DNA of 63,366 nucleotides, counting the filler, from Rhabdomonas costata (taxonomy: Eukaryota), in assembly GCA_019059605.1 (NCBI GenBank). It is 51 parts of 51 records of this genome, joined end to end, with 100 filler letters (N's around TTAATTAATTAA, not from the genome) between each part and the next. Parts side by side here need not be neighbours in the genome. Positions count along the whole stretch, not along the records: positions 6,238 to 7,383 come from JAHMHO010026409.1; 50 more parts are not named here. The stretch is one strand, 5' to 3'. Shown here piece by piece: positions 1 through 55,439 of this stretch. Positions within the stretch are counted from its first letter, which is position 1; each line of letters opens with the position of its first letter. The position numbers were made by a program, and so were the translations under genes. The notes below the pieces were generated by a model. That model did no database searches and was not told the DNA's origin. It was given only the letters and a program-made list of their open reading frames with translations.

Positions 1-1145
1 TGTGGTTGTTTCATAATTTTCTTGATCTCACTCGAGTTGGAATGTTTTCCCACATTGATTGTAAATGTTGGCGATTCCTCTGCTTCACTGGGTTTTTTTC
101 AGCTAGAACGTGGCATGTATCTTACGTTTGTCTGGGGCTCTCATTGGTGGTGCTTTCACTTTTTGTGGGAGTCGCATTTTTGAAAAGAATAATGTGGTGA
201 AAAACACTTTTCACCACATTCAGGCGAAATCTGATGGCGCAAATTTGCAGACTATTGGTGGCGCATAGGGTGCACGTGTGGCTCGCAAGGGATCTCTGGG
301 AAAAAGGAGGCTGTTGGTTCTTGGTGCTCACAACTTCTGGGATGTGGAGGAGTTTATCTGGGCTTGTCTTGCAGCTTATGCACTTCCACCAAAAAGGAAG
401 ACTGTGAAGTGGAACGCGACCGCACACACGCGATATCATGTGTTTACGACCTCTACCATCATCTTCACATCTGCTGGTGCCTGGTGCCTCGTGTCATCCG
501 CGGCTCTGGTCTGAGGTTCGGCTGTGATTCTGCTGTGGCACCTCCTGCGCAAAAAACAATTATAGGAGAAACGATACTAAAAAATTATAAAAGTGATCCT
601 TTTGATTTACAGCATTTCCGGAATCACAAAATTTCCAAAAACCTAATCAAAGTACCTATCTGTAATTGGCGTTCAAGAACACCAAGGTGGTCAGGACAAA
701 ATCCCCATAAATCTGCCTGGCACGTGGTGTGCAACCTTCTTCTCCCGAAACTCTAGAACTCGATTTGTATTTACTACTACCTACTTCCACATGGCTTCCA
801 TCCATTGGTCTGGCTCTTGACATTGCCTAATTTCAAAATTCCAAAAGGACAGCCGGTTATGGGCGCTGAAGGAACAGCCCCGACCCACCCCAAGGAGCAA
901 GGAGGGAGGAGGGAAAAAACAAAAGAATAGAGCAGAAGAAAAAACGATAACATTCCGTAATGTATGTTTAAGGTTTTCCATGTTGTTTTCTTTTCAATGG
1001 TTGGGGTGATTGTCTTGGAAGCATGAAGCTGGGAAAATGCGCCTTTTTATTGTAGCGATTGGGTTTTCTTTCGCGTTATGTTTCGGTTTTGGTTTTCTTT
1101 TGTGTTTTGGATTGGTTCTGTTTCTGTTTTGGGTTATTTGTCTGG

Positions 1146-1245
1146 NNNNNNNNNNNNNNNNNNNNNNNNNNNNNNNNNNNNNNNNNNNNTTAATTAATTA
1201 ANNNNNNNNNNNNNNNNNNNNNNNNNNNNNNNNNNNNNNNNNNNN
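1146..1245. other. Artificial contig spacer N44-TTAATTAATTAA-N44 (first of 50, about every 1245 bp)
   Basis: Identical 100-bp block with six-frame stops recurs throughout; the flanking contigs are unrelated and nearly equal in length. Confidence 0.99.
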
Positions 1246-2282
1246 GGGTTTGGGGAGTCCGCTCGTAACTTCACCACCGTTATCTCCAAGCCATTAACTG
1301 AAGACACGGAGATTGCAGATGTCTGCGTGCACATCGGAGTGTTTAAGCCAGTTACATAGCTCCATATTTTCACTTTATACTCCTCAAAGCCACGCAATCC
1401 ATGCTAGATCTTAATCTCAACTGCACTGCCTGCATGAATCTGCTGTAAATTAGCAAGTCGCTGTTTAGACACGTTCTAGTGCTTCTTCAAAATCAGAAAT
1501 ACTATTCATACCTATCTAAAAATGATGCATTCACGCACAGCTATTAAATGAAGTCTTAGCAGGATATTTATACAGAATAGATGACGATCTTTTCTTCACA
1601 TTCATGTCGCACTGTTGACAATCCGACACAAACGTGTGTTTGGTCAATTCTTTATCAACTACTGCACACTTTTTTATAAACTACCCATTACATTACATTA
1701 AGAAACCACATAACAGTACTGTTACATTCACAAAACACATGCCTGTGAATAGAGCCATGCACATTGCCAAAATGCGTATAAATAATTGCCTTAACATCCG
1801 CTTCATTACAAAATTGGTCCAACGTTGAATCTTTGCATCTTCGGTCACTTTTGTCAGCAGTTTGAAGAACTCTAGCTGCTTCCATATTAGACATACAGCG
1901 CACATTTATGACACTGGAACCCATTCCGGAAAATAAATGTATATCTTCTGTCTAACATGATCACAATAATTAGATGCTGTGGAAATAATTGCCTCAGACA
2001 AGTGTGTCTTATGCAAGATAATTGCAGTGGCCTACAATGTAACAACTATGTATTGTGTGCCATCCAAACAAATTGCATGCACATCAGCTCCGCCTTCAAA
2101 TCCACACGAATTTTACTAAGCATAGATGAAGGCGCTGGACAATTCTAAACATCCCGCGTCGCAATACACACCTTAACAAAACTCTGATGTACCTGCAGAG
2201 CTTGCCAGGGAATATTGGAGGCCATCAGCGCTGCTAAGTACGCAAAACAGGCGCATATAGCGTCAACAGGTAAGTTATTCAT
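1246..2282 (-). pseudogene. Possible decayed F-box gene on an AT-rich contig
   Basis: ATG at 2282 begins MNNLPVDAICACFAYL (F-box-like LP..I...F.YL); the frame is then interrupted by TAG/TAA stops. Confidence 0.25.
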
Positions 2283-5200
2283 AGACATTTTTGATGTCAA
2301 AAGCCGCATCTTGCAAGACGTCTTTGTACAACACCACGTTCACGTTGTAAACCTGTGAGATGTACACAATAAAACACACACCCAACCACCNNNNNNNNNN
2401 NNNNNNNNNNNNNNNNNNNNNNNNNNNNNNNNNNTTAATTAATTAANNNNNNNNNNNNNNNNNNNNNNNNNNNNNNNNNNNNNNNNNNNNGGGTTTGGGG
2501 GATACTCTGGAGATTGATGCAGGCAAATACTGCCATCGACATGTTATTTTCACCCAGTCAGGGGATCAGAAGGTCAGTACTGATGGCTTGCCAAGTTTTC
2601 CAGCAGCCTGCACCCAGGTAAGAAACTCTAAGGACAGAAAGTCCCAGAAACAGAGGTTTTTCGGCCTTTCCTATGCATAGGGCCCTTCAAGTCAGCGAAG
2701 CTATTCCAAATATTTATTTTCAATCCTGCTTTCTCTAAGTAACTCTCCAGTTTACATGGGGGGGGGGCAATCTCCCGCCAATGGTGCCAAGGAAAAATTT
2801 GCTCGCATTGGTCACAAGACCATTCCACCAAAACGTGGATGAAATCCAAGTGTCTACTGGGATATGCCCAGCGATGTCCAGCAAGGTTATGATATAAAAC
2901 GTTATGGAGGATGGAACGTCTCCCGGAAAAAGTACTGCATTATGGCCTCAAGAGAAAAAGAAAAGTACAGTTCGAATAAAAAGCAAAACCCACGATGCAG
3001 TTGTACAGGATGCTCAGTTACCGTGTGGCAGGCCGTGACAAACTTCCACGCCACGACAGCGCCAAAGGTGGTGAACGCAGAGAGCTCAGGGTGCTGAGTG
3101 CTGAGGGTGCCCATCACCTTAGAGGAAATGGGAGGAGTGGGGAGAACGATAACGAGCATCACAATGAAAGGAAGCAAAAGCCTGCAAAGCGCCGTGTTTG
3201 AGCACTGCTACCTGTCAAGAAGCGCATGTCGCATACACGTGATATTGTCCGCTTCACTTCAACTGAGAAAAATTTTTTTTCCTGCGACATTTTCGGACTC
3301 TGATGAAAATAGAAGGCACGCAAAAAAACGTACTTAAAATGTTGATTCCTTCTATACCACAGGGGCTTTTTTCCTGTGCCGTGCCATGCCTTTTATTTAC
3401 CGTCAGAACTCTTAGTTTAACTATCTTAGCACATCACATGAGCATGCAAACAATAGACTTGCGCACAAAAAATACGTCTGAGTCGTTCCGAAAAATCAAG
3501 ATTCGCAACGTTCCAACTCTTGCCTTTGGCAAAAACAAAACAATACTCCTATTTTTATAATAGAAGCTCGTATTCCACAGCCATCGATATTTCTGATTCT
3601 CACGCACATATCACACACTTGATATCCCCCCACCCNNNNNNNNNNNNNNNNNNNNNNNNNNNNNNNNNNNNNNNNNNNNTTAATTAATTAANNNNNNNNN
3701 NNNNNNNNNNNNNNNNNNNNNNNNNNNNNNNNNNNGGCCTCGGTCGGAGTGGGTGGGCGTTTATGGGAGTGGACTCCGCGGTAGTTGCTGCTGTTGTCAT
3801 GTTTCACCAGTGTCTTCCTTCATTGACTGCTTGAAAGCTTTTGTTATTGTTCCTCCCTTCAACCTGTACTGTTTTCCCGCACTCACGTTCTCTACTCTTT
3901 GCCTCTGTGCGCGGCTAGACTTGTGTGTGTACAGCAAGGTGAATTATATTTCTGTAATAAACACGTTGTGGCCGGGATGAGACGCGGCTAACGTCGTGGG
4001 GAATATCTCCGGCCACGGTTGGGTGGTGCAGTTGTAGACGCGGTTCAGCGCACATTGCCATTTTCCAGCCACTGTGGCGAACACTGGGTGGGGCCATGGC
4101 CTGAGAAAGGCGGTCCAGGAGAAAGTGGTGGGGGCCTTGTCGGAGAAAATGGTTTACCAGGGAGAGATCCGGTGACCAACTTGGTCCTGATACCACCAAC
4201 TTTTTTGAAGGGCGAACCCCGGACCACGTTTAGTTCGGAAAGCGGCCCGATATATGAAGGGTAGCAGCCGTTCGATACTTTGAGGGGGACCTGCGTGAAC
4301 CACGCTGGTGGTAACATTTTCTGTCATTTTAAGGAATCCAATTTCTTTCTCCAGGCTCAAACTCACACGCAAAATTGTCACGAACTGCGCAGGGCGGCCA
4401 TTCTGACTTTTGAGTTGCCCAGAAGATGAAAAATTTGGACATTCAATGTTTATATGACAAACAAGTAAAAAGCAAGGACACCCATATCACCAGAAGTTCT
4501 GTTGTATTGTACGTGCTTTGTACGTGCGTCAGCTACTTCTTCAACCGTTTATCTGGTAGGACATCGGCTGCGGCAATGCGTAGGCTTTGTAAATATTGGC
4601 TTCGAGGAATGATCTCCGGAGCTCCAGTGCTGGTGAAGTGGATTGGATGTTGGTCGGCACGTCGGACAGGATAGAGGTTGTAAGCTCCCAACGGACAGAA
4701 TCCACCACTGCCGGTCTTGGCCATTAGTCGGCTCCAGAAACAGAGCTACTTCTCTGGCTGCAGCTTTTCGCCGTGTACCCATGGCTGAACTGCGAGCCGG
4801 ACCCCTCCAACCGCGCCCTGACCCGAGGCGTTGCCGGTCAGCAGGTCAGCCCGGAGGTTGCCATCCCCGGCTGGGCCGCTNNNNNNNNNNNNNNNNNNNN
4901 NNNNNNNNNNNNNNNNNNNNNNNNTTAATTAATTAANNNNNNNNNNNNNNNNNNNNNNNNNNNNNNNNNNNNNNNNNNNNGGGTTGTGGTAATCGCCCCT
5001 GCCCCCAATGTCTTTCGATTCAAGAATGCCCTATCACATGGCAAAACAAATGATAATAATTCGCCATCGCCAAAGCCAAGATTATTATGCCCACCCTGAT
5101 AGAAGGCTTGCCCCGAAGTAATTTCTTAGACATCCCCACCCCGCTCGCGCGCGTAGTGCTTGAGCGCTGTTTCATTTATTCCTCTTTGTTGTCCCCATAT

Positions 5201-5394
5201 TAGTTATTCACCTCCAGCAGAAGGGCGCTCTCGCCGATTGTGTTTGTAACCTCTTCTCAGCCATCATCTCAAGTTTCGCGACTGCTCAAATCCTCCTCTT
5301 CCAAATCAGTGGGTGGGTGTGTTTGTATGTGTGAGAGAGAGAAAGAGAAACGCGAGTTTTCCCAAAAAAAATTCGCCTTGGCCAAGTGCAAAAA

Positions 5395-5395
<1 letters not shown>

Positions 5396-5434
<39 letters not shown>
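5396..5434 (+). repeat. (GT)n microsatellite, continuous with the tail of interspersed element copy 1
   Basis: Perfect TG run directly abutting TTGGGCGCTTAGCGCG. Confidence 0.95.
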
Positions 5435-5435
<1 letters not shown>

Positions 5436-5592
5436 GGGCGCTTAGCGCGTTGGCTGTTGCTCGAATTACTCTTGGTGACCACTGTGGACTGACGGGCACT
5501 CGCGCTGTTTGCCATGGGTGGTAGTGAGAGGTACCGTTGGAGCGAGCCGTGCCGTGGGGTCCCGCATTACACATATGCACTTATGGCAACCT
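5431..5592 (-). mobile_element. Short interspersed element (SINE-like), copy 1
   Basis: Reverse complement reads CCCACGGCACGGCTCGCTCCAACGGTACCTCTC...GTCAGTCCACAGTGGTCACCAA...GCAACAGCCAACGCGCTAAGCGCCCAACACAC, collinear with 6882-7101 and about 34410-34625. Confidence 0.85.
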
Positions 5593-5666
5593 CCCTTCTG
5601 CTCCCTCGGGTCCCAAATCAGTGTGTCTTTGTGGATGGGTGGGTGTGGGTGTGGATGCCCTCGCAG

Positions 5667-5825
5667 GACCCGACGATGACTCAGCTGTCGTGCCTGCGGA
5701 TTCTGCGGAGCCTGAAGCTGGTGCGGAGGTACATCCCGCAGGCTCTCCTGCTGCACCTCCGTGGCGAGGAAGAGGAGGAGCAGCAACCGCCCGCACAGGC
5801 CACCTTCTCTCCCAGCGACAAGAAG
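5667..5825 (+). CDS. Internal exon, possibly the pre-catalytic linker of a receptor-type adenylate/guanylate cyclase
   Basis: cgcag| ... |gt, 53 codons, GC3-rich; LRSLKLVRRYIPQALL resembles the L..F..Y(L/V)P helix that precedes class III cyclase domains. Confidence 0.4.
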
Positions 5826-6785
5826 GTCTCCTTCCCTGCCCCCGAAACCTCACCCTGGTGGCTGCGATTTCAAAGTAGTCTCTCGCACATTACGGCTGTA
5901 CTCTAACACTCAGCGGGCTCGAAACCCCCTCACCTCAAGAAAATCGGGATGGATTCAAATACACTCCACTACCTCCGCTAACAGCAACCATGCCGCCATG
6001 GCAATCATGCTGCTGAATGAATGCAAAGGTCTCTCTGGATGCAGCGAACGCCCACTCAGCGGACTCGCTTTGGGGGGTGACTTCCGCGTCTTAGGAGGGC
6101 AATGGAGCGTACAAGAACGTGTGCGAGAGCCCCCGAANNNNNNNNNNNNNNNNNNNNNNNNNNNNNNNNNNNNNNNNNNNNTTAATTAATTAANNNNNNN
6201 NNNNNNNNNNNNNNNNNNNNNNNNNNNNNNNNNNNNNCTCGCTTTGCGGGCCGCGGGCTTATGTGCTGTGCGTGAAGGTGGGAACTCTGATGTTCTCCCG
6301 AGATATTGAAGCCCTCCCCCCGGTTGATTCTGGAGTTGCTGATTTTTTGGCTGCCGTTCAAATCGAAAAGTAAAGAGGTCAATGACCAGAAAGAAGTAAA
6401 AGTGAAAGGGAAGGGAAGGGAAGGTAATGCATTCCAAATGGGATGGGCAGCGGGTCGAAAGGCTGCAAAGATTTGGCGCGTTCCAAAAGTGCAATGGCTT
6501 GGGGATGAGTGAAGAGTGGAACGGTTGCCGGGCCGAAGGGTGGGGGGAAGGGGGCATGAATTCGGTCACCATAATCTGTTGGTGTTTTGCTCACCTTTCG
6601 TTCCGGGATGTCTCTCTTCCAGTTCTTGTAGCAGTGGTTGAAAAACCCAGATGGTTAGACTTTTTCTTTGGCCCAACTGTCGGTAGTGATTGCGGTGTTG
6701 GTGGGGCGGTGGTAATCACAATTGATTTAAATATTGCTCGTGACGGCCCTACCTTATAATCGACTGAGACCTCAATTCCAACGAC

Positions 6786-6868
6786 GCACACGCACACCCA
6801 CACGCACACGCACACGCACACGCACACGCACACGCACACGCACACGCACACGCACACGCACACACACA
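6786..6868 (+). repeat. (CACACG)n/(CA)n microsatellite
   Basis: Directly visible hexamer tandem array ending in CA repeats. Confidence 0.95.
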
Positions 6869-7121
6869 GCTCCCTTGGAGCAATGCAGGTAGCCGCTGGA
6901 AAAGAGCAGTTGCGCGACAATGGCCCGGGACCCGTTAGGTTACCAGATGTGGAACGTTTCGGTTTCCCACGGCACCGTTCGCTCCAACGGCACCTCTCGC
7001 GAGCACCCGTGGCCAACAGCGCTTGCGCCAGTCAGTCCACAGTAGTCACCAACAACCAAGCAACCAGTCAACCAGGCAACAGCCAGCGCGCAATGCGCCC
7101 AACACACAGCTCCCTTGGAGC
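6862..7121 (+). mobile_element. Short interspersed element (SINE-like), copy 2, with 20-bp target-site duplication
   Basis: ACACACAGCTCCCTTGGAGC at 6862-6881 and 7102-7121 flanks a 220-bp body homologous to copies 1 and 3. Confidence 0.88.
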
Positions 7122-9669
7122 TCTTAGGGCTGTGCCGCGCCCTTTTGAGTGTTCTGCTCTCCTGTTTTGGTGTTTTTGGGCGCGTTGTTCATACCACTGT
7201 TTGTGCTGGACACCACGACGGGCATTGGAGTTAGAGGATATGTACGTTGCCTATTCACGTACACACATACACACACACACACGGCTCACCGCTCACAGCG
7301 AAGACGGGGCCGACATGTGGGACCAACTTCTACTGCGGGGAGGACATCAAGCGGGACCCCACCACCGTGTGCCACCCCAAAAANNNNNNNNNNNNNNNNN
7401 NNNNNNNNNNNNNNNNNNNNNNNNNNNTTAATTAATTAANNNNNNNNNNNNNNNNNNNNNNNNNNNNNNNNNNNNNNNNNNNNGGGTGGGGGTAAGGTGG
7501 GCTAAGGGTGCACCTACTTCGGCATGCCCGGTACCCGTGACCCTCCATGACCAAAGATGCCAAGGTAGGGGTGCACCCCCGGGTAGACCTGACCTGGACC
7601 CCTCCTTGGGCTAAAGTTGGTTTTTTGGACAAATTCACAAAAGGCGAAAACGTTTAGCAGTGCTGATGTTTAACGTCCCCCCCCCCTAGAAAGGGGAATA
7701 AGAGCGATAGGTTTACTCATTTCGGCTCAAATCTTCACCCTGGGTGATTTCCGACATAGGTCCCCTTGTACCGGAGCCGGAGCCGGACCCAGACCTGACC
7801 GAGGACCTGACACGGGGACGTGTATTGAGCTCGACTGGCCAGTTTGGGCCGATAGTTGAAACGTTTCCTGAGCTGGGCTTGCTGGCAGCCTCCCAGACCG
7901 TGCACCTCTATGCCCAGTTGTGGCATCTTAAAGGGTGCATTTAAGACCTGGTCCCATAAAACAACCAACGGCAAAAGTATGCAAAAATAATGCCGGACGT
8001 TGACCGTGAGCATAATTTCAGAGTTTCCGTACAGGTGGCGGCCAACCGCAGATGGGGTGTCTCGTTCCGGTTGGATGATGTCCTCCCTACTTGCTGAAAA
8101 GGCATTCCCCTTTGCGTTGGTTTTCCAGTTCCATGTGGCGCATTCTCGGCAGAAATACTCTCAGTGGTTTTGTTGCACACCCGATGGCGAACGCTCCGCT
8201 GCAGTACTTTGAGAAGGAGCTGAATGGGCAGCTCAGCAAGACTGAATGGATTCTACTTTCCAAACTTACCCCCAAGGGAATCGCCAAGGTCAACGCTGAC
8301 GCCTCTCGAGGTTCTTATTTGGGGATAACCTTGACAGCTCAGGCCTCGGCGTTGTGCTGATAACCTTGTGCAATATCAGCAACCTCGTCTATCCGAAAAG
8401 CCTTTCCACTTTTGGTGTCATTTGACAACAGTCGATACTCTAGCGCGGTCTTCACGAGAAAACTACGGGCTAAAAACATGGGCGTGGACAAGATTGCGTC
8501 CAGATTGCGTCTGACTTCTGATTCTTGCTTCTTGTGCTTTTGCTTTGTGTTATCGGGAAGAGGCTAAAATGCTTGTGCAAAGTTGCTTCATCCTTGTTCG
8601 TCGCCTGATTCAGTACCCACCAACACCCNNNNNNNNNNNNNNNNNNNNNNNNNNNNNNNNNNNNNNNNNNNNTTAATTAATTAANNNNNNNNNNNNNNNN
8701 NNNNNNNNNNNNNNNNNNNNNNNNNNNNGGGGGTGTTGGCGTCTGGGTGCAGGAATAGGTGTGGTCGTGAATTGAGACTTTTCTGGTTGCATGAGTCGAG
8801 CATTGTTCTCCCTTCATAGACCCCCCGCTCACGCAACGCACAAGCACACACACATACACACATACTGCGGAGAAGTTAGCAAGAGGGCAGAAGATGGAGT
8901 TGTGGTTTTGGTCCATTTTCTTTTGCGACTTTTTTCCACTCGTAGGTGCGGCTTCTCTCGTCCGTTCATAGGGTATTGCGGTCGGACCTGCTGCTCTACG
9001 TGCTAATAAGGAGAGCACATGTGTAAAAATTGAGAAAAAAAGAGCGCGTACTCTTTCATTTTGTGTGTGTGTGTGTGCGTTTTATTTCGCCAATTTCGAG
9101 CTTGTTCCATTGCTGCTCTTTGAATTCTCTCTTTGTCGAGATTCCTTCATAGCCGTTATGTCAGTCTTTCTGTTTCAGGAAAGGACCAAGCAACTGCATC
9201 GGTCTCCTTCTTGAACTCCCCCTCCCCTCACCCAGGCTCAGAAACTGAGCTATTGCCATCGTATACGTCGATTCTTGCTAACCCACCTTGCTAACCCATA
9301 TGTCGCACCTGGCAAACGCCTCTTGACCTGCTCCCAAACTTTTTTCTCGTGCAGGCCCAGCGGAGATAACTTAAAATGAAGGCCCCACTTCAAGATGTCA
9401 TAACTGCCCGTAAGTATGAGGTTAAGTAGTACCTCCATCCCACCAAGTATGGGCCGCGGAACCGGGGAGTTTAGGTGCCATGCGACTCGTTGCTGGTACT
9501 CCGGTGTGTCTACCTAGTTCCGGCTATTTTCCGAGAGGCTTGGCACCACTCCATCGCGAACGAACGTTTGCTACGGAGAAGTGAACGTACGCGGATCTTT
9601 TTGTTCACGCTGTTTTCTTTGTTAAGCAGGCACTTTGCAGTTGAAGGCTGTATGTTTTCTTGATATACA

Positions 9670-9807
9670 ATGGCTGACGCGGAGATGGCTGCAGGCGGTT
9701 CAGGAGGCAATGCGGAAGAGGACGAGGAGGAGCTTCTGGTGCTGTTGGAGATCCCTTCGTTGGAGGGCCTGCCATGTTCGCTGAACGCCACTCCAGTCCG
9801 GGTGCTG
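9670..9807 (+). CDS. First exon of a TFIIIC subunit 6-like protein
   Basis: MADAEM...EEDEEELLVLLEIPSL...PVRVL|gtatgg resembles the acidic run, LVLVEL, then KVLG pattern of the TFIIIC_sub6 domain. Confidence 0.55.
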
Positions 9808-11692
9808 GTATGGAACGTTCCAATGCAAGTGCGCAAGCTCCCTCTGGTAGCTTCTTATAACTGACCCACCACCNNNNNNNNNNNNNNNNNNNNNNNNNNN
9901 NNNNNNNNNNNNNNNNNTTAATTAATTAANNNNNNNNNNNNNNNNNNNNNNNNNNNNNNNNNNNNNNNNNNNNTTGCCTGCTGCTTGACTGCGCCTTTGA
10001 CCCCCGCCCGCAAATTAAAGATGCGAAAAGATTTCCCAATTACGCGCAAAGACAACATACTTTCGTTAAAAATTATCCTCAAATTAACACGTACACAAAT
10101 AACTGCAGCATTTTTAGCACGCTCGGCAGGCAAAATTATTGGTTTGGATCAGCGATCATCAATTTTTGATCCAAATTTTGTTCCGATTCATAATTAATAC
10201 GAATTAAGACAAACGTAAGAAAACAACAGGGCAAGCCCGCACAAACGTTCCAATAGTTCATTAATTTCTTCAGAAAACGAAAACAACTATATGCGCTGCG
10301 CGGCATCACCAGAAACTTTTTACTAGATGGGGCACCGTGTACAGTTCTAAATTGAAAATTGTAATTATTTGTTGGGAAGGGGAAACAAAAGGGTAGCATA
10401 GCTCTCAAACGAGAGCCGCTAAGTGAAAACAGCCGCCCGTAGGAATGTCGTATGCACAAATTCGACATTCCTACCTCTTAACAGAAACACCAAACTCTTC
10501 AACCTCTTGCAGATTGCATGTGCCAGAAAACGTTAAGGTGATGCTGACGGAAAAACGTTGGTTAATAGTTTGTTCCAGATAAATCTGAGATAATGTTGAG
10601 TCTCTCACAGTCTGACTAAAAGAAGCAAGCACCACGAACTGAACGACGGTGAATGTGTGTGCAGGTCAGAGTTGTTTGATTTTTCTGCTGTTGTCCCTAG
10701 TGCAAGATACAAATAATTTTCTATAAAGTTCAACCGATCAAAAGTGGGAAGAGGGAGATTATTGAACCAGAATCGAAAATCATCATCTACACAACCCAGT
10801 CGTTGGTAATATTATCCTACTTTTACCATTTCCATCTGTAATCATCGGTAAACTTTAAACACACGCCAGTGAAGGGAACCCATAGGATATCCCTGGATCT
10901 GTTATCTGTTCTTTTGGCTGCTTGCGGTAGCTACAGCCTACGGTCTACAATACCAAGAAATTCCGATGCTCAAAGACGCCAAAGACCTGACTTTTTGGTC
11001 TCCTTCTCTTTCGTCTTCGTGTTCTGATGACTAAAAAAGTGCCTAATGGTCCCCAAAACATTTTGTTTTTGCACCGCTTGTCTTCATTTTTCTTTCCCAG
11101 GATGCAATTATGTCAGTGNNNNNNNNNNNNNNNNNNNNNNNNNNNNNNNNNNNNNNNNNNNNTTAATTAATTAANNNNNNNNNNNNNNNNNNNNNNNNNN
11201 NNNNNNNNNNNNNNNNNNTTTCGGGGAAGAACACGCGCGCGGCTTGGACTGTTCGGCTCGTGGCATCGTGGTGTTGCATACACAGAACCGTACCGGCAAA
11301 ATATGGGATGCAAATTCACAAAAATTCACATTTACTTATTTTCTACGACAGACTTTGACCACCATTTTTATAATCTCTCTATCGGTACGGTGGCGGGCAC
11401 TTCTTACTGTTGAGTTCAGGGTACGGCTGTTCCGGATGAAGATAGCCTTTTTTTTGCGCTTCGGCCTTTACTTGTGAAGAAGCAGGAGGAATAAGTGGGC
11501 TTATACGTGACCCTCGGCTCCCTCCCGGCCGAATACTGACTGATGCAAACGTTTCCCTAACGGTGTTAGCGGCAGGTACGGGGCAAAAAAACGCAATCAC
11601 GCCACAAAAAGAAAACAACCCATGCACACCGTTAAGAGTGGTATGAGCGTAATTGGGATGGTGAAAGGTGAAAAGTGGTGGGGTTCGCGTAC

Positions 11693-12363
11693 CAGAAAGC
11701 ACAAAGTCGTCCATGATACCGATCATGACGATGCAGAAGTCAAACAAGTTGGACCGAACCCGGAAGTATCTACAAAAATCCGCCCAAATCAGAGTGCTTC
11801 CGAAATTCTGCGCTAAAATAAAATACCCAACAACATTATCACCCAACAACAACATTTTCCACCCAAAACATTATGGCGTTGTACTTGGCATTGAAAAAAG
11901 ACACATAGAAAAGTGCAGCTTCACCTCCACCTCCGCTCGAAGCTGAATTACAGGCACGTGGCCCGTTTGTGCATCGCTTTTCCTCACATTCGTTTGTCGC
12001 CTCTTGAACAAGAACCACGCCAAAGTAAAAAGTAAAGGGAGGGGTTTCGCAAACCAGGGAAGAGGGAAAACTGCATAGAAGGATAATGGAGGACAACAGT
12101 GAAACGATGAGGCTTATAATGAGCACGGCATCCAAAAACGGACATACGTGAAAGGGCCGTCTCCGAGCAGTCGCAGCGTGGCCTCCGCGGCGAAAAGACA
12201 CGTGAACACCTTGTTCGCCATTCCAAGCTGGTCCAAGGTCTCCTGGTTCATTCCGTAGAACGGCACGGCCAGAGCCAGGATGTTCGCCACGATCGTCGAG
12301 ACGACGATGGCCTCAAAAAATCGATGGCGGATCACTGCCCTCACGAATCCCCGAAAACACACC
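11693..12363 (-). CDS. Voltage-gated Ca2+/Na+ channel-like protein, S1-S3 (exons 12363-12148 and 11769-11693)
   Basis: RFFEAIVVSTIVANILALAV...ANKVFTCLFAAEATLRLLGDGPFT|YFRVRSNLFDFCIV; the phase-2 GT-AG intron joins the exons in frame. Confidence 0.85.
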
Positions 12364-12784
12364 NNNNNNNNNNNNNNNNNNNNNNNNNNNNNNNNNNNNN
12401 NNNNNNNTTAATTAATTAANNNNNNNNNNNNNNNNNNNNNNNNNNNNNNNNNNNNNNNNNNNNGGTGTGGGGGGTGCGGAAACGCTGCCGAGTCTCCGGC
12501 ATTCATCAACTGCCGCCCTTGAACATTTCCGCACCTCCACACCTCTTCACACCTTGGCCCAACCTTTCCCGCACTCCCAAATAATTTCTCGTTTCTGGCA
12601 ACGCGAGGAGATTTGTTTTGGGTCACTGGTCACGGAAGAGTTTTGTGTCTTTCATGTGCGAAACAAGCAGCAAACTTTTGGTCTTGTAAAACTGGCTGCA
12701 AAGATATGCTGCAGCGTTATTTTTTGCTGCAAATTTAAGGATAAAATCTGTGTAATATAAAGCAGAAACAAAATCCCCTCAAAC

Positions 12785-12946
12785 CAGTCTGGCGGTCTTT
12801 TCCATGTGCAACAGGGAGTCCAGAGCATCCTGAGTTCTTCCTGAGGAAACAAAAAGCTCAGCTTGTTTAACAACTTCATCTGTTTTTTCACTGTAATCTT
12901 CCTGTTTTTGATAAATCCCAGTTTTCCATTCGCGCTCGTCTGCCAT
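12785..12946 (-). CDS. RPN5: First exon of 26S proteasome lid subunit Rpn5/PSMD12
   Basis: MADEREW...KQEDYSEKTDEVVKQAELFVSSGRTQDALDSLLHMEKTARL|gt matches the Rpn5 N-terminus (DYS...D.....L.....A...LL.LEK..R). Confidence 0.85.
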
Positions 12947-13372
12947 TTCCTTCCAAACAGTAGGAAACGCACTACTGCGAGTTCGAAATTCTTCAGGGTT
13001 CTGGGTGTTCTTGAACAAGAAGAAACCAAGAAAGCAAGTACGAAAGTTTTTTGTGCACTGCTATAATATTGCACATTGCACCCTTTTTGCGATTTTTTAG
13101 TTCCGAGCTCCATCATTTTTAATGAAACCCTGCTTTACACCGTTAAAAACCACACAGACATCACCTTTCAGCCTCCTGTTCAATTCCTCCAAAGTGCAGG
13201 ATTTCTCTCTTGAAAAACAAAAGTCCCAGTTCTTCTACCGCACCTCGAAAATCTTGGGTGTCGTTCCCCGGTGAACTAGGTCACGTGGAGAGTTTTCTGC
13301 CTTTCCCACAACGGGGTGGATGGGAAACAAAAAAAATGATGTTTCCCAAACATCTCCTCTCTTTCAGCCCAC

Positions 13373-13606
13373 CTTTTCTTTTGCCCGTCCTGGAGCACAA
13401 CATCGGCGTTGGCTCGGACCATCCGGGTGAAGGCATTCACGCTGTCGAGGCCCCCAAAACGCTTTGATCCCCTCCTCCGACTGGCGGATCTTACCCTTCT
13501 CACGCAGGGCGTCCTCCTCCTTCAAAGCGTCCTCCCAGGTCATGCTGACGGGCTCGAAGACGTTGTTATCAGCGAGGTATTTCGCCATCTCCCTCTGGTA
13601 CCACCA
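13373..13606 (-). CDS. Exon of an unknown protein with an apparent 1-nt frameshift
   Basis: The GC3-rich frame EMAKYLADNNVFEP...EEGIKAFW continues as GLDSVNAFTRMVRANADVVLQDGQKK only if one G of a G5 run is removed. Confidence 0.5.
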
Positions 13607-14268
13607 NNNNNNNNNNNNNNNNNNNNNNNNNNNNNNNNNNNNNNNNNNNNTTAATTAATTAANNNNNNNNNNNNNNNNNNNNNNNNNNNNNNNNNNNNNN
13701 NNNNNNGGTTGGTGGTGACAAATTGATGGAGTGAAAAAAGTCACAGAATTTGCAATATTACAGGTGATCACAGAGGTTTTGGCACATGTCAGTTTTCTGG
13801 CCAACAATAATATCTTCTGGGGTAATATCGTCTGTGGCCGGCGGGTTGTTGGGTTGAGGCATTTGTTCAAAGTGTGCGAGAGCGGGGATGCGAAGTCACT
13901 CGCGCAGCTGGAGCAGATCAAGATCCCAGGATGTTGTATTTTGCGATGCAGAGGCACGGCCTTCGTTCATTCTGTAAGAACTTGGTGCGAATAGATGGGC
14001 AGGGCTGGGTGGACCTTCACACCTCACCGTTTCCGATACCAGGCCCCAGAACTCACTGTTAATCCGGTCGATTTTTGGGTCAACTTTGTCTCGTTGGTAC
14101 GTATGCGTGTGTGAAGAGTTGTTTTCGAATGGAGAAAAGTCCTTCTCCAAAGTAATCCAAAATGACCAACGGCAGAGCGCGCAAACCCCCGCTTACCCCA
14201 CCATCACCTCTCGTGGCAGACGTGCGTTCGGGCCCAACGCAGGGGCGTGCGTGTGTGGAGGGGCACAC

Positions 14269-14472
14269 CTCCACCAAAGGCCCCTTTGGGGAAATAGTTC
14301 ATGTTGTGCGTCAGGAGGCCCAGAAGGGCGACCTTCTTGGGGGCTGTGCCGGGGGGCATCCCGGGCTCGGGTTGCACCTCCACCGTGGCGGACTCGGGCA
14401 GCTTCATTGGTAGCTTCAGGGTGGGGAAGTTGGTGCTGATCCAGGTGAACTTGGACTCCTGAATCCTCTTCC
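14269..14472 (-). CDS. Exon of a 5'-nucleotidase/calcineurin-like metallophosphoesterase
   Basis: Phase 1-1 exon KRIQESKFTWISTN...KKVALLGLLTHNMNYFPKGAFGG resembles the S.F.W.S.N and K(V/I)(G/A).(L/I)GL motifs. Confidence 0.65.
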
Positions 14473-15531
14473 CTGCGTTGATGCATGCATGCAGATACAG
14501 AACGGCATTCCTGCGCAAAAATCTGAACCCAGATTTTAAACAAAATTTGGTTGGCAGTTTAGGAGTTGTGCAGTACCTGCGCAGTCCTGCTTTACACCAC
14601 AAGTTAGACCAAGCGTCACTGAACAACATCACCTGCCAAAATTCACACAAAAAACTAGACCGCTCTCCAAAACTTCCCCTGCACGGTGCATCAACGGTGC
14701 GCCCGCTCACAAGTAGAAACCAAAAACTATGGGCATTCAAGCAATTAAAGTGCCTTGGTCTTCGAAATCCCAAATAATACTTTTTACCAATTGACAAAAA
14801 TCCATTTTTTCAACAACAAGAACAGCAGCAACATGGCTTGCCCCAACAACANNNNNNNNNNNNNNNNNNNNNNNNNNNNNNNNNNNNNNNNNNNNTTAAT
14901 TAATTAANNNNNNNNNNNNNNNNNNNNNNNNNNNNNNNNNNNNNNNNNNNNGTGGTGGGTGTGTTTGGGGGTGGGTGGGTGGAAGCATGCATTCCTGAAG
15001 GAGAATGGGTGAAGGGTTGAACATAACGGGCGGAGCTCATAAGGCACCAGGTTCATGTCCATTTCATACACATGATACACAAATGTTGGGAGTGCAGAGA
15101 AAGCAGAGTAGAAGGGGAAGGGGAGCTGCTTTCTCATGCCCAGCATGTATCCGACCTGCAGGCGCCTGCTGCCAACTTCACTCTCTCACTTACGGCCTTA
15201 CCTCAAGCGAGATCAGCAATTTTGCTCTGTGTTTTTTCTCTTTCCACGTCAAAAGCAATGGACCACCCAGCCAGGGGAACGAGAAGGAGAAGGGCATTCT
15301 GACAAAGAAGAGAACGACAAGGTGCTGCCAGGTGCCGGGAACATCCTTCCGTCGAGCGGGGCACTCCCCCTGTTGGCGAAAAGAGCTAAAAGGAATCAGC
15401 CCTGTCGTCGCCACAGGAAGAAAAGCAAACCTGCACTGTCATGCTTGCCGTAGCCCAGTGCTTTTACAGGAAGGCCGCTGAAGTCAACTCCTTTCTGAAG
15501 CGAAACAAAAGAACGCCATGGGGTCACGTAC

Positions 15532-22078: not shown

Positions 22079-22319
22079 ATGTTTTGCATTATTGCACTAT
22101 GGCCCAAAGTGGGGCTTTGAGACTTCTCGACTCGAGGCGCACAGCAAACTTTTCAGAATATGGCCTTTTCTTCGGATTTGCAGGAATCAGCACAAAACTT
22201 AACATCAAGCCAACAGCAACCCTGTGGGCTTGATGTTTTGCATTATTGCACTATGGCCCAAAGTGGGGCTTTGAGACTTCTCGACTCGAGGCGCAAAGCA
22301 AACTTTTCAGAATATGGCC
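22079..22319 (+). repeat. 87-bp direct repeat (22079-22165 and 22233-22319), period 154 bp, truncated by the contig end
   Basis: The two copies differ at one base (CACAGC versus CAAAGC). Confidence 0.9.
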
Positions 22320-34409: not shown

Positions 34410-34625
34410 AAGGAAAGAGCAGCTGCGCGGCAGCGTGGCCCGGGACCACATGGTTACCACATGTGGAACGTTCGGCGGTGAGCCGGTTCCGGTTCTCCAG
34501 GGCGCCGTTCCCTCCAACGGCACCTCTCGCTAGCACCCGTGGCCAACAGTCCGTGCGCCCGTCAGTCCAGAGTGGTCCCCAACAATCAACAGGCAACAGC
34601 CAGCGCGCATTGGGCCCAACACATG
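34410..34625 (+). mobile_element. Short interspersed element (SINE-like), copy 3
   Basis: AAAGAGCAGCTGCGCG..TGGCCCGGGACC..GGTTACCACATGTGGAACGTT..CTCCAACGGCACCTCTCGC..GGCAACAGCCAGCGCGCATTGGGCCCAACACA, collinear with copy 2. Confidence 0.85.
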
Positions 34626-34907
34626 CAGAGAGAACACAACGCGGACTAAAAATTTAGAAGCGAAAGCTGGCAGCACACACCGGCAGACTAACAACTCGGC
34701 ACCTTTAATGATACGTGGTTTCTTTAAAACATGCGTTGGCTATGTTCCAACCCCANNNNNNNNNNNNNNNNNNNNNNNNNNNNNNNNNNNNNNNNNNNNT
34801 TAATTAATTAANNNNNNNNNNNNNNNNNNNNNNNNNNNNNNNNNNNNNNNNNNNNTGTTTGTGGGAGCCTATCGCGGTCAGGGCCTGCACCACCCTCTCT
34901 GCGGCAG

Positions 34908-35999
34908 TACCGCCTCGGTTCCAGCCCTCCGAGGAGTGCGTGACCCAACTGACAGACATGGGGTTTCCGCGGGAGAGGGTGGTGCAGGCCCTGACCGCGA
35001 TAGGCTCCAACAACACCAACCTGGCCACGGACTGGATCCTCACCCATATGGACGAGGAGCCGGAGCCCCTGCCGGAGGTGGAGGACGAGGAGAGCATCCT
35101 CCGCAGGGCCATCGCGATGTCTCTTGAGCAGGCTGAGACACCGCAGGAGCAGCAGGCACGCCGCCCTTGCAGCTCCGCCCCCCCCCCGTCAAGGAGGTTT
35201 TTGTTTTGTGGTTTTTTGTCTATGACAATTTTTGTGGCCGCACCACCAGGGGCGCGTCTGATGTGCAACCTGAGTTCATGCCCAGTTTGTCGTCAAGATT
35301 CTTGTTGTAATGTGTGAGACCCCAAGAGACCCCAAGGAACACCGAGAAGATCTTGACAACATAAATGTATTCACATGCATTCCTAGTCATCCAAGCCAAG
35401 GGCTGTTCAATCATCGCGCAGTCATACAAGGGGGACGCGGTGTACTTACAAACGGACTTGAAACTGCATGCGCAGAAATTCTGATCGAAGCGTTCCGTCT
35501 CATTCCAATGCCAGCATGAAGTTCCCCCGGCCCTTCTCATCCAGGAGGAGGCAAAGGACAAGCCCGAGGACCCTGCCCCCGTGACCGACCCCAGGGCGGT
35601 GCTCGCCAAGGAAGCCTTGGACTGGGCCTTTGCCCTGCTGGAGGGACCAAAGCGGCTGGAGCACGGCTGCGCGGACCTCCTCAACCTGCTCTGCGCCACT
35701 CCCTCTGCCACCCCCGCTGACGCGGCCGCTGCCTCTGTCCAGCCCAAGCCCCAGGCCAAGGTATTGGCGAAGCTGCTGGAGGCACTGCGACGACAGGTGC
35801 GGCAGGTGGAGGGCCAGCCCCCGCAGCTGACCCCAGAGCTGAAGGGGGCGCTGCAGTTGCCGTGGCTGCTTCTGTCGCAGCCCGGTAACTCAGCCATGGC
35901 CACAGAAGCAGCTTCCACCCCAGCTGTGGTGGAGGACATTCTTCTGGTTCTGGAGGCTGTGGCCTTGGCCCTGGCCAAGCGCTCAGGGGAGGCCAGTGG
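34908..35999 (+). CDS. UBA plus UIM region, HUWE1/UPL1-like E3 ligase architecture (exons about 34908-35155 and 35545-35999)
   Basis: QLTDMGFPRERVVQAL...ATDWILTH (UBA) followed by EESILRRAIAMSL (UIM); the phase-0 intron gcacgc...atccag is GC-AG. Confidence 0.8.
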
Positions 36000-53843: not shown

Positions 53844-54906
53844 GTTGCGTTGTGTGCGTGTGTGTTTGTGTGCGTGTGCGTGCTTGTGCGTGCTTGCGTC
53901 TTACCCAGCAGTCATTCAAAGTTCCTCCACGGAACGAGACTCCGAGGCAACTTGTGTCACCAACCTGAGCACCTGCTCGATGAGTTACGAACCTCAACGC
54001 AGACCCCTCCAACGTATCTGTCATTTTAACGCCCATGACCACGAAATTGCAAAAAAAAACATTACCCCCATATAATGCCCTCCTTCCTCTCAGCCGCCTT
54101 GTCTCGTAGATTCAGTTGGTTTTCCGAGCACCCTTTTTAAATAAGGATGAAACCTTTTACAATCTTTTTTAATTATTGAAATATTTTGGATTTTTGGAAT
54201 TTTTATGGGAAATTTTAAAACCAGTGCTGTTTTTTCGATGTTATCGAAACCTGAGGTTTTTGGTGTAAAAAAAACTGCTGGACCTCAGCGCCTTAGAGAG
54301 TTCCCCTTTGCTTGATTCCCATCCATTTCGGCCCTTTCTCACCCCTCCCCTCCTCTCCATGTTGTCTCCTCGGCCACTTGGCTTCTTTTGATGACATGTG
54401 GCGCTGGGTTGATGCACCGCACGCTGTTATGCAAAAAACTCTGTGGCCTTTCTTGTGTAAACACTGTAAACAAACCTGACTCAAGAGGCTGCTTTCTTGG
54501 TGTGTTTTTGTGGGCGGATGCTGCTTCCGATGACTCTGCTGAGAAAGAGGTTAAGCTTCAGTGCCTAAAAGTGCTTTCGATGGAAAGTACTGCGAACCAC
54601 TTAAGATTCACCTTGGAGCCGGCTGAGTCAGGTTTGTTTACAGTGTTTACACAACACANNNNNNNNNNNNNNNNNNNNNNNNNNNNNNNNNNNNNNNNNN
54701 NNTTAATTAATTAANNNNNNNNNNNNNNNNNNNNNNNNNNNNNNNNNNNNNNNNNNNNTTGTGTGGGTAGTCCGTCGCCAATCGTCCAAGCTGTTCAACT
54801 TTCGAAAAAAAAAAAGCATGGCTTATTATAAAAATTGCAATTCGAAAAACGTTTAAGACCTCCAGACACCGAAAAGCACAGGAAAGCGCGCGAAGGTACG
54901 CAATAC

Positions 54907-55439
54907 CTGTGCCTGCGCTTCCAGGGTGGGTCTCTGGAGGTTCCAGCTCAACTAATGAGATTTGTATCTCAGAGACCTCGGAAGGTTCCTCCACTTGGAC
55001 TTGGGGAACTGTTGTCACGCGTTCCAGTGCTACCTCTGAAAGAACTGGATTGGTGACAGGGGCAGCTATGTGGCGAACATGGCCAGCCTTGAAGCAGCTC
55101 AGGCAGACGTCGTAGTCACAGCCCCGTTCACATCGGAATGCGGTGCCTCGCCGCAGGCATATGTCACAAACGTGCTGAGGCATCGCCAAGGGAGTGAGCC
55201 GATGCGAAGCTGAGGAAACGAGGCAAACCAACCTTAAAAAGTGGAGGAAAGAGTGTTGGGGTGGGGTGGGGAAGAAGCAAACAGTGTTAAAAAAAAAACA
55301 GAAAATAAGAAAAGGAACAGCCTACCTGGCTGGTTGTTCTTCATTGCCCGTACTGCAGTTGTACGAGAGGGCACTGGCATGCTCGCTGTGCAAATGATGA
55401 GAGATGCTATCACGTCCCCAGTTTCCGAGTCCACCAGCG
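54907..55439 (-). CDS. ZZ-type zinc-finger protein (exons 55439-55326 and 55209-54907)
   Basis: HVCDIC.....FRCERGCDYDVCLSC; the phase-1 GT-AG junction is consistent. Confidence 0.7.

What the first reader, a model, noticed from the sequence alone, without database searches (positions are those of the whole stretch)
6862..7121. Microsatellite-associated SINE-like family with an AC tail and a 20-bp target-site duplication
Seen: a non-coding element of about 220 bp is present on three independent contigs (5431-5592 minus, 6882-7101 plus, about 34410-34625 plus), and all copies end in CCCAACACA. Copy 1 runs into a long (AC)n. Copy 2 sits at the end of a (CACACG)n array and is flanked by an exact 20-bp duplication whose first bases (ACACAC) overlap the element tail. 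There are no terminal inverted repeats, and I see no clear tRNA A/B boxes. Inference: a retroposon inserted by target-primed reverse transcription whose AC tail anneals to GT/AC microsatellites. Three copies in 51 random contigs imply a high genomic copy number. I do not recognise it as a described family.
Basis: partly seen in the sequence, partly recalled or inferred. Interest (0 to 1): 0.75.

Follow-up and report, generated by a model that had tools for sequence, protein, structure and literature searches.

The report
Tip of a Penelope-like jumping gene
The short repeat is not a SINE but the cut-off end of a 6.5-kb Penelope-like jumping gene that inserts into CA microsatellites, and whose protein unusually also carries a ubiquitin-removing protease and a chaperone-recruiting J-domain.

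Summary
The three copies and the 20-bp duplication are real, but the 220 bases are not a SINE. Walking upstream through the genome shows they are the 5'-truncated tip of a roughly 6.5-kb Penelope-like retroelement of the Chlamys type: N-terminal GIY-YIG nuclease without CCHH, CxC motif, reverse transcriptase. Copies share one 3' end, start anywhere (median 140 nt; none of 64 at 200-240), follow a CA tract in 44 of 64 cases and carry variable target duplications. The unusual part is the cargo: an OTU-like deubiquitinase, a DnaJ J-domain under purifying selection, and CCCH fingers. Intact relatives, one a Euglena gracilis transcript, share parts of this layout, and one has USP in place of OTU. 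In 7 of 7 contigs spanning the element's start, the tip runs in frame through AACACACA into the body, so the 'non-coding' tip probably codes and the 'AC tail' is an internal priming site. I did not find this layout in print; the scan saw the same kind before in another genome. New variant of a known kind.

The parts
6876..7108 (+). Copy 2: 5'-truncated 3' tip of the Penelope-like element, ending in its AACACACA
   Evidence: 86.5% over 260 columns to the mapping scaffold, E 9e-91; 81-87% to 29 other loci
6862..6881 (+). Left copy of the 20-bp duplication; 6869-6875 unambiguous target, 6876-6881 microhomology with the element
7102..7121 (+). Right copy of the 20-bp duplication; 7102-7108 overlaps the element's terminal AC stretch
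6784..6867 (+). (CACACG)n/(CA)n microsatellite, the insertion target of copy 2
5427..5614 (-). Copy 1: older, shorter 3' tip of the same element
   Evidence: 74% over 212 columns, E 1e-31
5395..5430 (-). (AC)n run after copy 1
5613..5623 (-). 11-bp word at the 5' junction of copy 1, repeated at 5301-5311: possible target duplication with about 85 other bases between it and the AC run
   Evidence: not tested against chance
5301..5311 (-). Second copy of the 11-bp word, downstream of copy 1
34414..34623 (+). Copy 3: 3' tip of the same element, short AC end, no duplication seen
   Evidence: 80% over 235 columns, E 3e-58

Best explanation
The window holds three 5'-truncated insertions of an autonomous Penelope-like retroelement of the N-terminal-endonuclease (Chlamys-type) group. 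The unit is about 6.47 kb: GIY-YIG nuclease, CxC motif, reverse transcriptase, OTU-like cysteine protease, coiled coil, DnaJ J-domain, a small conserved C-terminal domain, stop, then about 1.5 kb that holds two CCCH fingers and the tip seen in the window. Shown: this order, the fixed 3' end, the truncation continuum, the CA bias, the duplications, inverted 5' pieces and the head-to-tail junction. Inferred: the nuclease nicks the GT strand of a (CA)n tract, the freed GT end pairs with the AACACACA in the element's RNA and primes reverse transcription; the second nick falls a few bases past the tract, so duplications consist of CA units plus unique flank; synthesis usually stops early, leaving thousands of short tips.
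For: Overlapping natural contigs link the window sequence without a break to the protein domains; internally deleted copies join RT sequence directly to the 3' part (L004, L214, L034). Pfam: GIY-YIG E 7e-4 on L237 and RVT_1 E 4e-7 on L215, DnaJ E 3e-17 on L090. Intact single frames in other assemblies: P0009 (RT-OTU-J, 62-70% to our RT and J pieces) and P0017 (nuclease-CxC-RT-USP-J, 1983 aa). Of 90 loci picked by an exact 3' pattern, 64 had 40 nt of 5' flank: 44 had (CA)4 or more, 0 had (GT)4, background 0.8%; median length 140 nt, close to the 128 bp median of new Chlamys insertions in Chlamydomonas (PMC9977147). Duplications with 3 or more unique bases in 10 of 56 loci against 0.7 in shuffled pairs. 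Inverted 5' pieces in 4 of 69. Identical tip-to-body junction in 7 of 7 contigs that span the start.
Against: No single contig holds the whole element; its length and order rest on tiling short contigs with frameshifts, thin at the 5' end (2-8 fold). The OTU piece of this family has no Pfam hit of its own (0 families for L161 and L176); it is called from its alignment to relatives whose OTU scores are mostly below Pfam's cut-off. 46 of 56 loci show no duplication with unique bases (it may hide in the CA tract). 20 of 64 flanks lack a perfect (CA)4, copy 3 among such cases. No named Chlamys sequence could be put in the tree, so the group is assigned by features. Pairing of the primer with the AC stretch is not shown, and in the one element tested in vitro initiation was at a site not homologous to the target (PMC11167929).
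Confidence: 0.92

Rival explanations
1. A true SINE or fixed-length non-autonomous retroposon of about 220 bp that borrows the 3' end of the Penelope-like element.
For: 3' tips outnumber 5' ends about 100 to 1 (1251 against 13 candidates); non-autonomous Chlamys families exist in Chlamydomonas (PMC8557442).
Against: 0 of 64 5' ends at 200-240 nt, a smooth spread from 23 nt upward; no foreign head, no B box, no tRNA or Rfam match; the three window copies start at different points.
Confidence: 0.03
2. Most short copies come from an RNA that starts at a fixed point about 811 nt before the tip, and are primed at the first of its two AACACACA sites (solo terminal-repeat copies), not from early stops on the whole element.
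For: 9 junctions (8 independent) at two adjacent bases 811-812 nt from the 3' end, 89 nt before an ATG, against 7 in the 140 nt upstream; 3 of the 8 are not CA-flanked; 61 of 64 pattern-picked copies are 812 nt or shorter. The Penelope transcript of Drosophila starts inside the terminal repeat (PMC2377424).
Against: The site (CAAGCAC) resembles a CA tract, and 5' junctions favour CA/AC (18 of 48 against 15% background), so microhomology may explain it; the search that found most of them began 6 nt upstream; steep truncation alone also gives mostly short copies; a second, broader cluster near 1,250-1,300 nt from the end is unexplained. No RNA data were available.
Confidence: 0.4
3. The CA runs are tails made by slippage after insertion (the element seeds microsatellites) and not pre-existing targets.
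For: 52 of 90 3' AC runs are longer than the 7 nt in the master junction.
Against: CA tracts lie on the 5' side too, in the same orientation, within 0-22 nt of the junction, and duplications read CA units plus unique flank on both sides. Tail growth may add to this but cannot make the upstream tract.
Confidence: 0.05
4. The J-domain and OTU pieces are captured host sequence carried passively.
For: Penelope-like elements can carry host sequence (PMC8557442); some relatives lack the J-domain (3 of 11).
Against: Variants shared by 3 or more copies in the J region are 26 synonymous to 17 non-synonymous, 28 of 43 at third positions, while singletons are neutral; HPD is kept; 8 of 11 long relatives carry DnaJ in the RT frame; a second family in this genome has it at about 40% identity.
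Confidence: 0.05

Closest known systems
Chlamys elements (N-terminal EN+ Penelope-like elements; Craig et al. 2021, PMC8557442)
   Same: N-terminal GIY-YIG without CCHH, CxC motif, DK-type motif, long spacing between RT motifs A and B, 3.3-8.2 kb size range, (CA)n target, heavy 5' truncation, partial tandems, no hammerhead; Chara families have a Josephin-like protease after the RT.
   Different: OTU (or USP in a relative) plus DnaJ J-domain, a further C-terminal domain and CCCH fingers are not among the listed domains (PHD, SAP, Josephin-like, zf-CCHC); hosts listed are green algae, streptophytes, Selaginella and Physarum, not euglenids; in Chlamys-3_cRei the repeat/body boundary lies in a 5'-UTR intron, here it lies in an open frame.
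Naiad elements (animals; same paper)
   Same: Same permuted order, CxC, GxKF/Y-like and DKA-like motifs, microsatellite bias, no hammerhead.
   Different: Naiads have CCHH and CX2-5CxxC fingers at the nuclease, target (TA)n and are 3.4-4.4 kb; none of these applies here.
Poseidon element PAc of Anolis (Frangieh et al. 2024, PMC11167929) and Penelope of Drosophila virilis (PMC2377424)
   Same: Tandem organisation; reverse transcription starts inside the RNA at an AC-rich site within the ORF; transcription starts in the terminal repeat.
   Different: C-terminal nuclease, hammerhead present, AT-rich target not homologous to the start site, start site only 111-118 nt into the ORF; here the site matches the (CA)n target and lies about 730 nt after the likely ATG; the junction region is not unusually structured (z 0.26).
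SINEs
   Same: Short, abundant, fixed 3' end, simple-repeat end, target duplications.
   Different: No fixed 5' end, no RNA polymerase III head; the sequence is part of the autonomous element.

Membership tests
Penelope-like elements | PLE-type reverse transcriptase in one frame with a GIY-YIG endonuclease | tested here: met
   Pfam RVT_1 and GIY-YIG; natural copies L228, L236, L239 read in frame from nuclease side into the RT leader; P0017 holds both in one frame
Penelope-like elements | Partial tandems (pseudo-LTR), 5' truncation, inverted 5' pieces | tested here: met
   7 of 7 start-spanning contigs preceded by the tip; truncation continuum and 4 of 69 inverted pieces
Penelope-like elements | 30-40 bp optional 'tail' extension | tested here: inconclusive
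   None of 90 pattern-picked 3' ends was seen to run on into body sequence beyond the AC stretch (read by eye)
Chlamys | Endonuclease N-terminal to the RT | tested here: met
   GIY motif at scaffold 311, RT motif A at 1987; order from overlapping contigs
Chlamys | No CCHH and no CX2-5CxxC finger at the nuclease; R, H, E, N kept | tested here: met
   L237 and L231 translations: no cysteine between or just before the GIY and YIG motifs; R, H, E, N positions read by eye
Chlamys | CxC motif and DK-type motif before the RT core | tested here: met
   CPC followed by GHLC in L203/L205; DRG/DRA in place of DK, so the second residue is R, not K
Chlamys | Insertion in the fingers (20-40 aa extra between RT motifs A and B) | tested here: inconclusive
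   Spacing 88 aa here, 83-91 in relatives; the canonical value (about 60-65) is recalled, not measured
Chlamys | No canonical hammerhead ribozyme | tested here: met
   No Rfam match to E 1 in six loci covering the 3' region and junction; core-like strings only inside the RT region, none in the terminal repeat
Chlamys | Insertion bias for (CA)n or (C)n | tested here: met
   44 of 64 5' flanks, background 0.8%
Chlamys | RT falls in the Naiad/Chlamys clade | not testable with these tools
   No named Chlamys or Naiad protein came up; published ORFs were compared by eye only and share the RT and nuclease motifs
Naiad | CCHH and CX2-5CxxC fingers; (TA)n target | tested here: not met
SINE | Fixed 5' end | tested here: not met
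SINE | Head derived from tRNA, 5S or 7SL RNA with internal promoter boxes | tested here: not met
SINE | Non-autonomous and non-coding | tested here: not met
   Part of an RT-encoding element; coding status of the tip itself probable but not proven
Entries of Repbase or Dfam | Sequence match to a deposited family | not testable with these tools
   Neither library is on hand

The most novel reading that the evidence does not exclude
A euglenid lineage of Chlamys-type elements whose gene is circularly permuted: the RNA starts inside the terminal repeat, the repeat encodes the first 240 or so residues (two CCCH RNA-binding fingers and the window's tip) of one polyprotein of about 1,900 residues, and reverse transcription is primed by base pairing at an AACACACA that lies inside that reading frame, so only tandem copies can make protein. 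The polyprotein brings its own protein-quality kit: an exchangeable deubiquitinase (OTU, USP; Josephin in Chara) and an Hsp70-recruiting J-domain that folds or activates the reverse transcriptase. Support: the frame is open across 7 of 7 junctions; shared variants from the ATG to the tip favour third positions only in that frame (33 of 69, p 0.009; synonymous excess p 0.03; uncorrected, variants not independent); in relative P0025 one frame runs through J-domain and four CCCH fingers into the next unit's N-terminal part (69% to residues 1-81 of the Euglena transcript).
Probability: 0.4. Interest if true: 0.7.

Novelty: new variant of a known kind. Interest (0 to 1): 0.5.

Why it matters
As a SINE discovery it falls away, and it is a clear example of how the abundant 3' tips of Penelope-like elements pass for unknown short repeats (Craig et al. 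say the same of automated models). What remains is useful to transposon specialists. It extends the Chlamys group to euglenids (one relative is a named Euglena gracilis transcript). It shows a retroelement protein with a conserved J-domain and a deubiquitinase slot filled by different protease families, which suggests that the element manages folding and turnover of its own protein. It also offers a clean test of an open question, how these elements target microsatellites and keep their tandem form: one 8-nt AC site inside the element matches the target, and can be changed in an in vitro assay.

Tried and rejected
SINE, tRNA or ribozyme origin: Rfam at gathering score on the window and to E 1 on six loci gave nothing; ARAGORN nothing; the junction region folds no better than shuffles. 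MITE or DNA transposon: no inverted ends. Spliced-leader-capped copies: no match of a short recalled leader motif with up to 2 mismatches in 363 loci and the window, so host lineage and RNA start were not settled that way. DNA context of the intact relatives: two scans of metagenome contigs found none, so P0025's structure is known from protein only. The C-terminal domain after the J-domain: no Pfam family (P0004, P0005), no usable Atlas hit, modelled at pLDDT about 60-70 as a helix plus strands; the fold search returned J-domains only; its function stays open. Selection in the window's own tip was inconclusive (6 synonymous, 13 non-synonymous; p 0.33), one shared 8-nt deletion there breaks the frame in 5 copies, and each CCCH motif alone had too few variants. 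The shared-variant test on the nuclease region had too little depth (5 variants). Expression could not be examined: no sequencing runs were available for this window. Sequence look-ups of earlier notes found nothing. The RT tree left out 10 short matches and 1 identical row and has no named reference. Literature searches for this layout listed no paper on it by title or abstract; the library lacks most subscription journals and Repbase reports. A text search of the Chlamys paper's supplement found no HPDK, DnaJ, OTU, CCCH or Euglen, but protein rows there are cut at about 400 characters, so C-terminal domains in those sequences were not seen.

Full report
Setting. The window is 51 short contigs of about 1.1 kb joined by spacers, from a fragmented 97-Mb eukaryote assembly of 104,289 contigs. 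Host genes have GT-AG introns. The host is probably a euglenid: the only relative of the element with a trustworthy name is a Euglena gracilis transcript (P0024), and earlier notes of this scan call the genome euglenid. I did not confirm that directly.

Observation. Three related copies are there, with a shared end, the (AC)n after copy 1, the (CACACG)n array and the exact 20-bp repeat around copy 2. Of those 20 bases only 7 are unambiguous target; 7 overlap the element's AC end and 6 match the element upstream of the junction. There are no inverted ends, no B box, no tRNA and no Rfam match. An exact 22-mer of the end occurs 270 times (control 0); three copies in 58 kb extrapolate to about 5,000 (95% range 1,000-14,600).

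It is not a 220-bp element. The first 30 loci showed a fixed 3' end and homology running further upstream. I walked upstream with eight more DNA searches and one on the start. Overlapping natural contigs tile a unit of about 6.47 kb: GIY-YIG nuclease (Pfam E 7e-4, below cut-off), CxC motif, reverse transcriptase (E 4e-7), OTU-like protease, coiled coil, DnaJ domain with HPD (E 3e-17), a small C-terminal domain, a stop near 4,960, then two CCCH fingers and the tip (positions). The in-script scaffold has frameshifts at thinly covered places, so one frame is not shown by it. Intact relatives show it: P0009 (1351 aa, RT-OTU-J; 62-70% identical to our RT and J pieces) and P0017 (1983 aa, nuclease-CxC-RT-USP-J).

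Insertion pattern. I took 90 of the 270 exact-pattern loci (the first 90 or so listed, so the longer contigs). Of 64 with 40 nt of 5' flank, 44 had (CA)4 or more just upstream, none had (GT)4, against 0.8% background. Lengths run from 23 nt to over 1 kb, median 140, none at 200-240. Duplications with at least 3 unique bases beyond the CA units were found in 10 of 56 loci, 0.7 in shuffled pairs; the other 46 show none or hide it in the repeat. Inverted pieces sit at the 5' side of 4 of 69. 5' junctions favour CA/AC (18 of 48, background 15%). Many copies have internal deletions.

The junction. All 7 contigs that span the element's start have the same junction: the tip, AACACACA, then the body. 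They differ by substitutions and deletions, so they are at least several copies. The frame is open across the junction in all 7, and runs on to the nuclease in L237. In natural copy L002 that frame starts at an ATG 731 nt before the junction's end and holds both CCCH fingers. Shared variants there favour third positions in this frame only (33 of 69, p 0.009; synonymous excess p 0.03), with no signal before the ATG and no significant signal in the tip alone (p 0.33); these variants are not independent and the tests are uncorrected. Relative P0025 runs in one frame from RT through OTU, J-domain and four CCCH fingers into the next unit's N-terminal part. 5' ends pile up at two adjacent bases 89 nt before the ATG (9 junctions, 8 independent, against 7 in the 140 nt upstream): a candidate RNA start, though microhomology with CA tracts is a live rival.

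Mechanism. Shown: anatomy, fixed end, truncation, CA bias, duplications, tandem junction. Inferred from what is known of Penelope-like elements: nicking by the GIY-YIG domain and target-primed reverse transcription. Inferred here: the nicked GT strand pairs with the internal AC stretch; the second nick falls a few bases past the tract; early stops leave the tips. For comparison, the Poseidon element tested in vitro also starts inside its ORF at an AC-rich site, but one not homologous to its AT-rich target (PMC11167929, parts 1-3 of 4 read), and Penelope is transcribed from within its terminal repeat (PMC2377424, passages).

Cargo. In the J region, variants shared by three or more copies are 26 synonymous to 17 non-synonymous while singletons are neutral. 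The model folds as a J-domain at pLDDT about 90 (sequence hits). 8 of 11 long relatives carry DnaJ; in a wider search 10 of 39 did, many of the rest being partial, and OTU hits were common. In the RT tree our family groups with P0009 (99/96) and P0001 (98/96), and the USP-bearing P0017 sits among OTU-bearing rows (96/89), which points to a swap of protease. A second J-domain family is present in this genome. That the J-domain recruits Hsp70 to the RT, as host Hsp40/Hsp70 do for hepadnavirus polymerase (recalled), and that the protease removes ubiquitin, are inferences.

Comparison with what is known. Chlamys elements (PMC8557442; main text parts 1-6 of 10 and supplement parts 1, 2, 5, 6 of 59 read) have the same order, lack CCHH and hammerheads, target (CA)n, truncate heavily and form tandems; new insertions in Chlamydomonas have a median of 128 bp (PMC9977147, passage). 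Every feature I could test was met, two were inconclusive (fingers insertion, tail) and clade placement could not be tested. The paper lists PHD, SAP, Josephin-like and zf-CCHC domains and no euglenid host. My searches (passages of PMC9940879, PMC11252322, PMC12278014 and bioRxiv 2026.07.22.740005) showed no description of OTU plus J-domain in such elements; Repbase, Dfam, the uncut supplement sequences and bioRxiv supplements were not seen.

Verdict. Observation partly confirmed; interpretation partly supported. It works like, and by features is, a Chlamys-type Penelope-like element (confidence 0.92), in a variant with deubiquitinase, J-domain and CCCH cargo. Interest 0.5; the permuted-gene and self-chaperoning reading has probability 0.4 and would deserve 0.7.

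Noticed in passing
L339-L363 (G000): A second Penelope-like family with the J-domain and the same C-terminal domain, mostly 50-70% identical to the USP-bearing relative P0017 in that region; L349, L355 and L361 also match P0017 further upstream, at or next to its USP domain.
   Followed up: partly
P0025, P0027, P0062, P0064: A GEAxxPGP motif lies between J-domain and CCCH fingers in P0025 and P0027 and occurs in two more relatives; it recalls 2A-like ribosome-skipping peptides (recalled, untested). I did not see it in the translations of this family.
   Followed up: no
P0042: A relative is named as a hypothetical protein of the plant Genlisea aurea; it nests among the metagenome rows, so it may come from a protist in that sample (inference).
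   Followed up: no
window:7109-7260: The flank after copy 2 resembles another repeat that abuts CA tracts (71% over 77 nt to L240; similar text by eye in L010, L023, L042).
   Followed up: partly
L006, L008, L023, L283, L326: A shared internal junction (scaffold about 6,313 back to about 6,070) marks a subfamily with a duplicated 3' segment.
   Followed up: no
L059, L060, L249, L285, L309, L320: Copies inserted into the CA tract right behind another copy's 3' end, making partial tandems with a microsatellite between them.
   Followed up: partly
window:34202-34223: 22-nt stretch 86% complementary to part of copy 3, about 190 bases upstream of it; a small inverted piece or chance.
   Followed up: no
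window:22372-22872 (-): Open frame with an aspartic-protease-like LLDSGA motif of LTR-retrotransposon type (read by eye); a near-exact 87-bp direct repeat lies at 22079-22165 and 22233-22319 on the contig before it.
   Followed up: no
window:58491-59634: Contig of 17.7% GC with a 333-aa AT-rich open frame, unlike the rest; perhaps organellar, viral or from another organism.
   Followed up: no
window:52666-53241, 34862-35317, 54760-55321: Host gene pieces: Tim10/DDP-like, UBA plus UIM, and ZZ-type zinc finger.
   Followed up: partly
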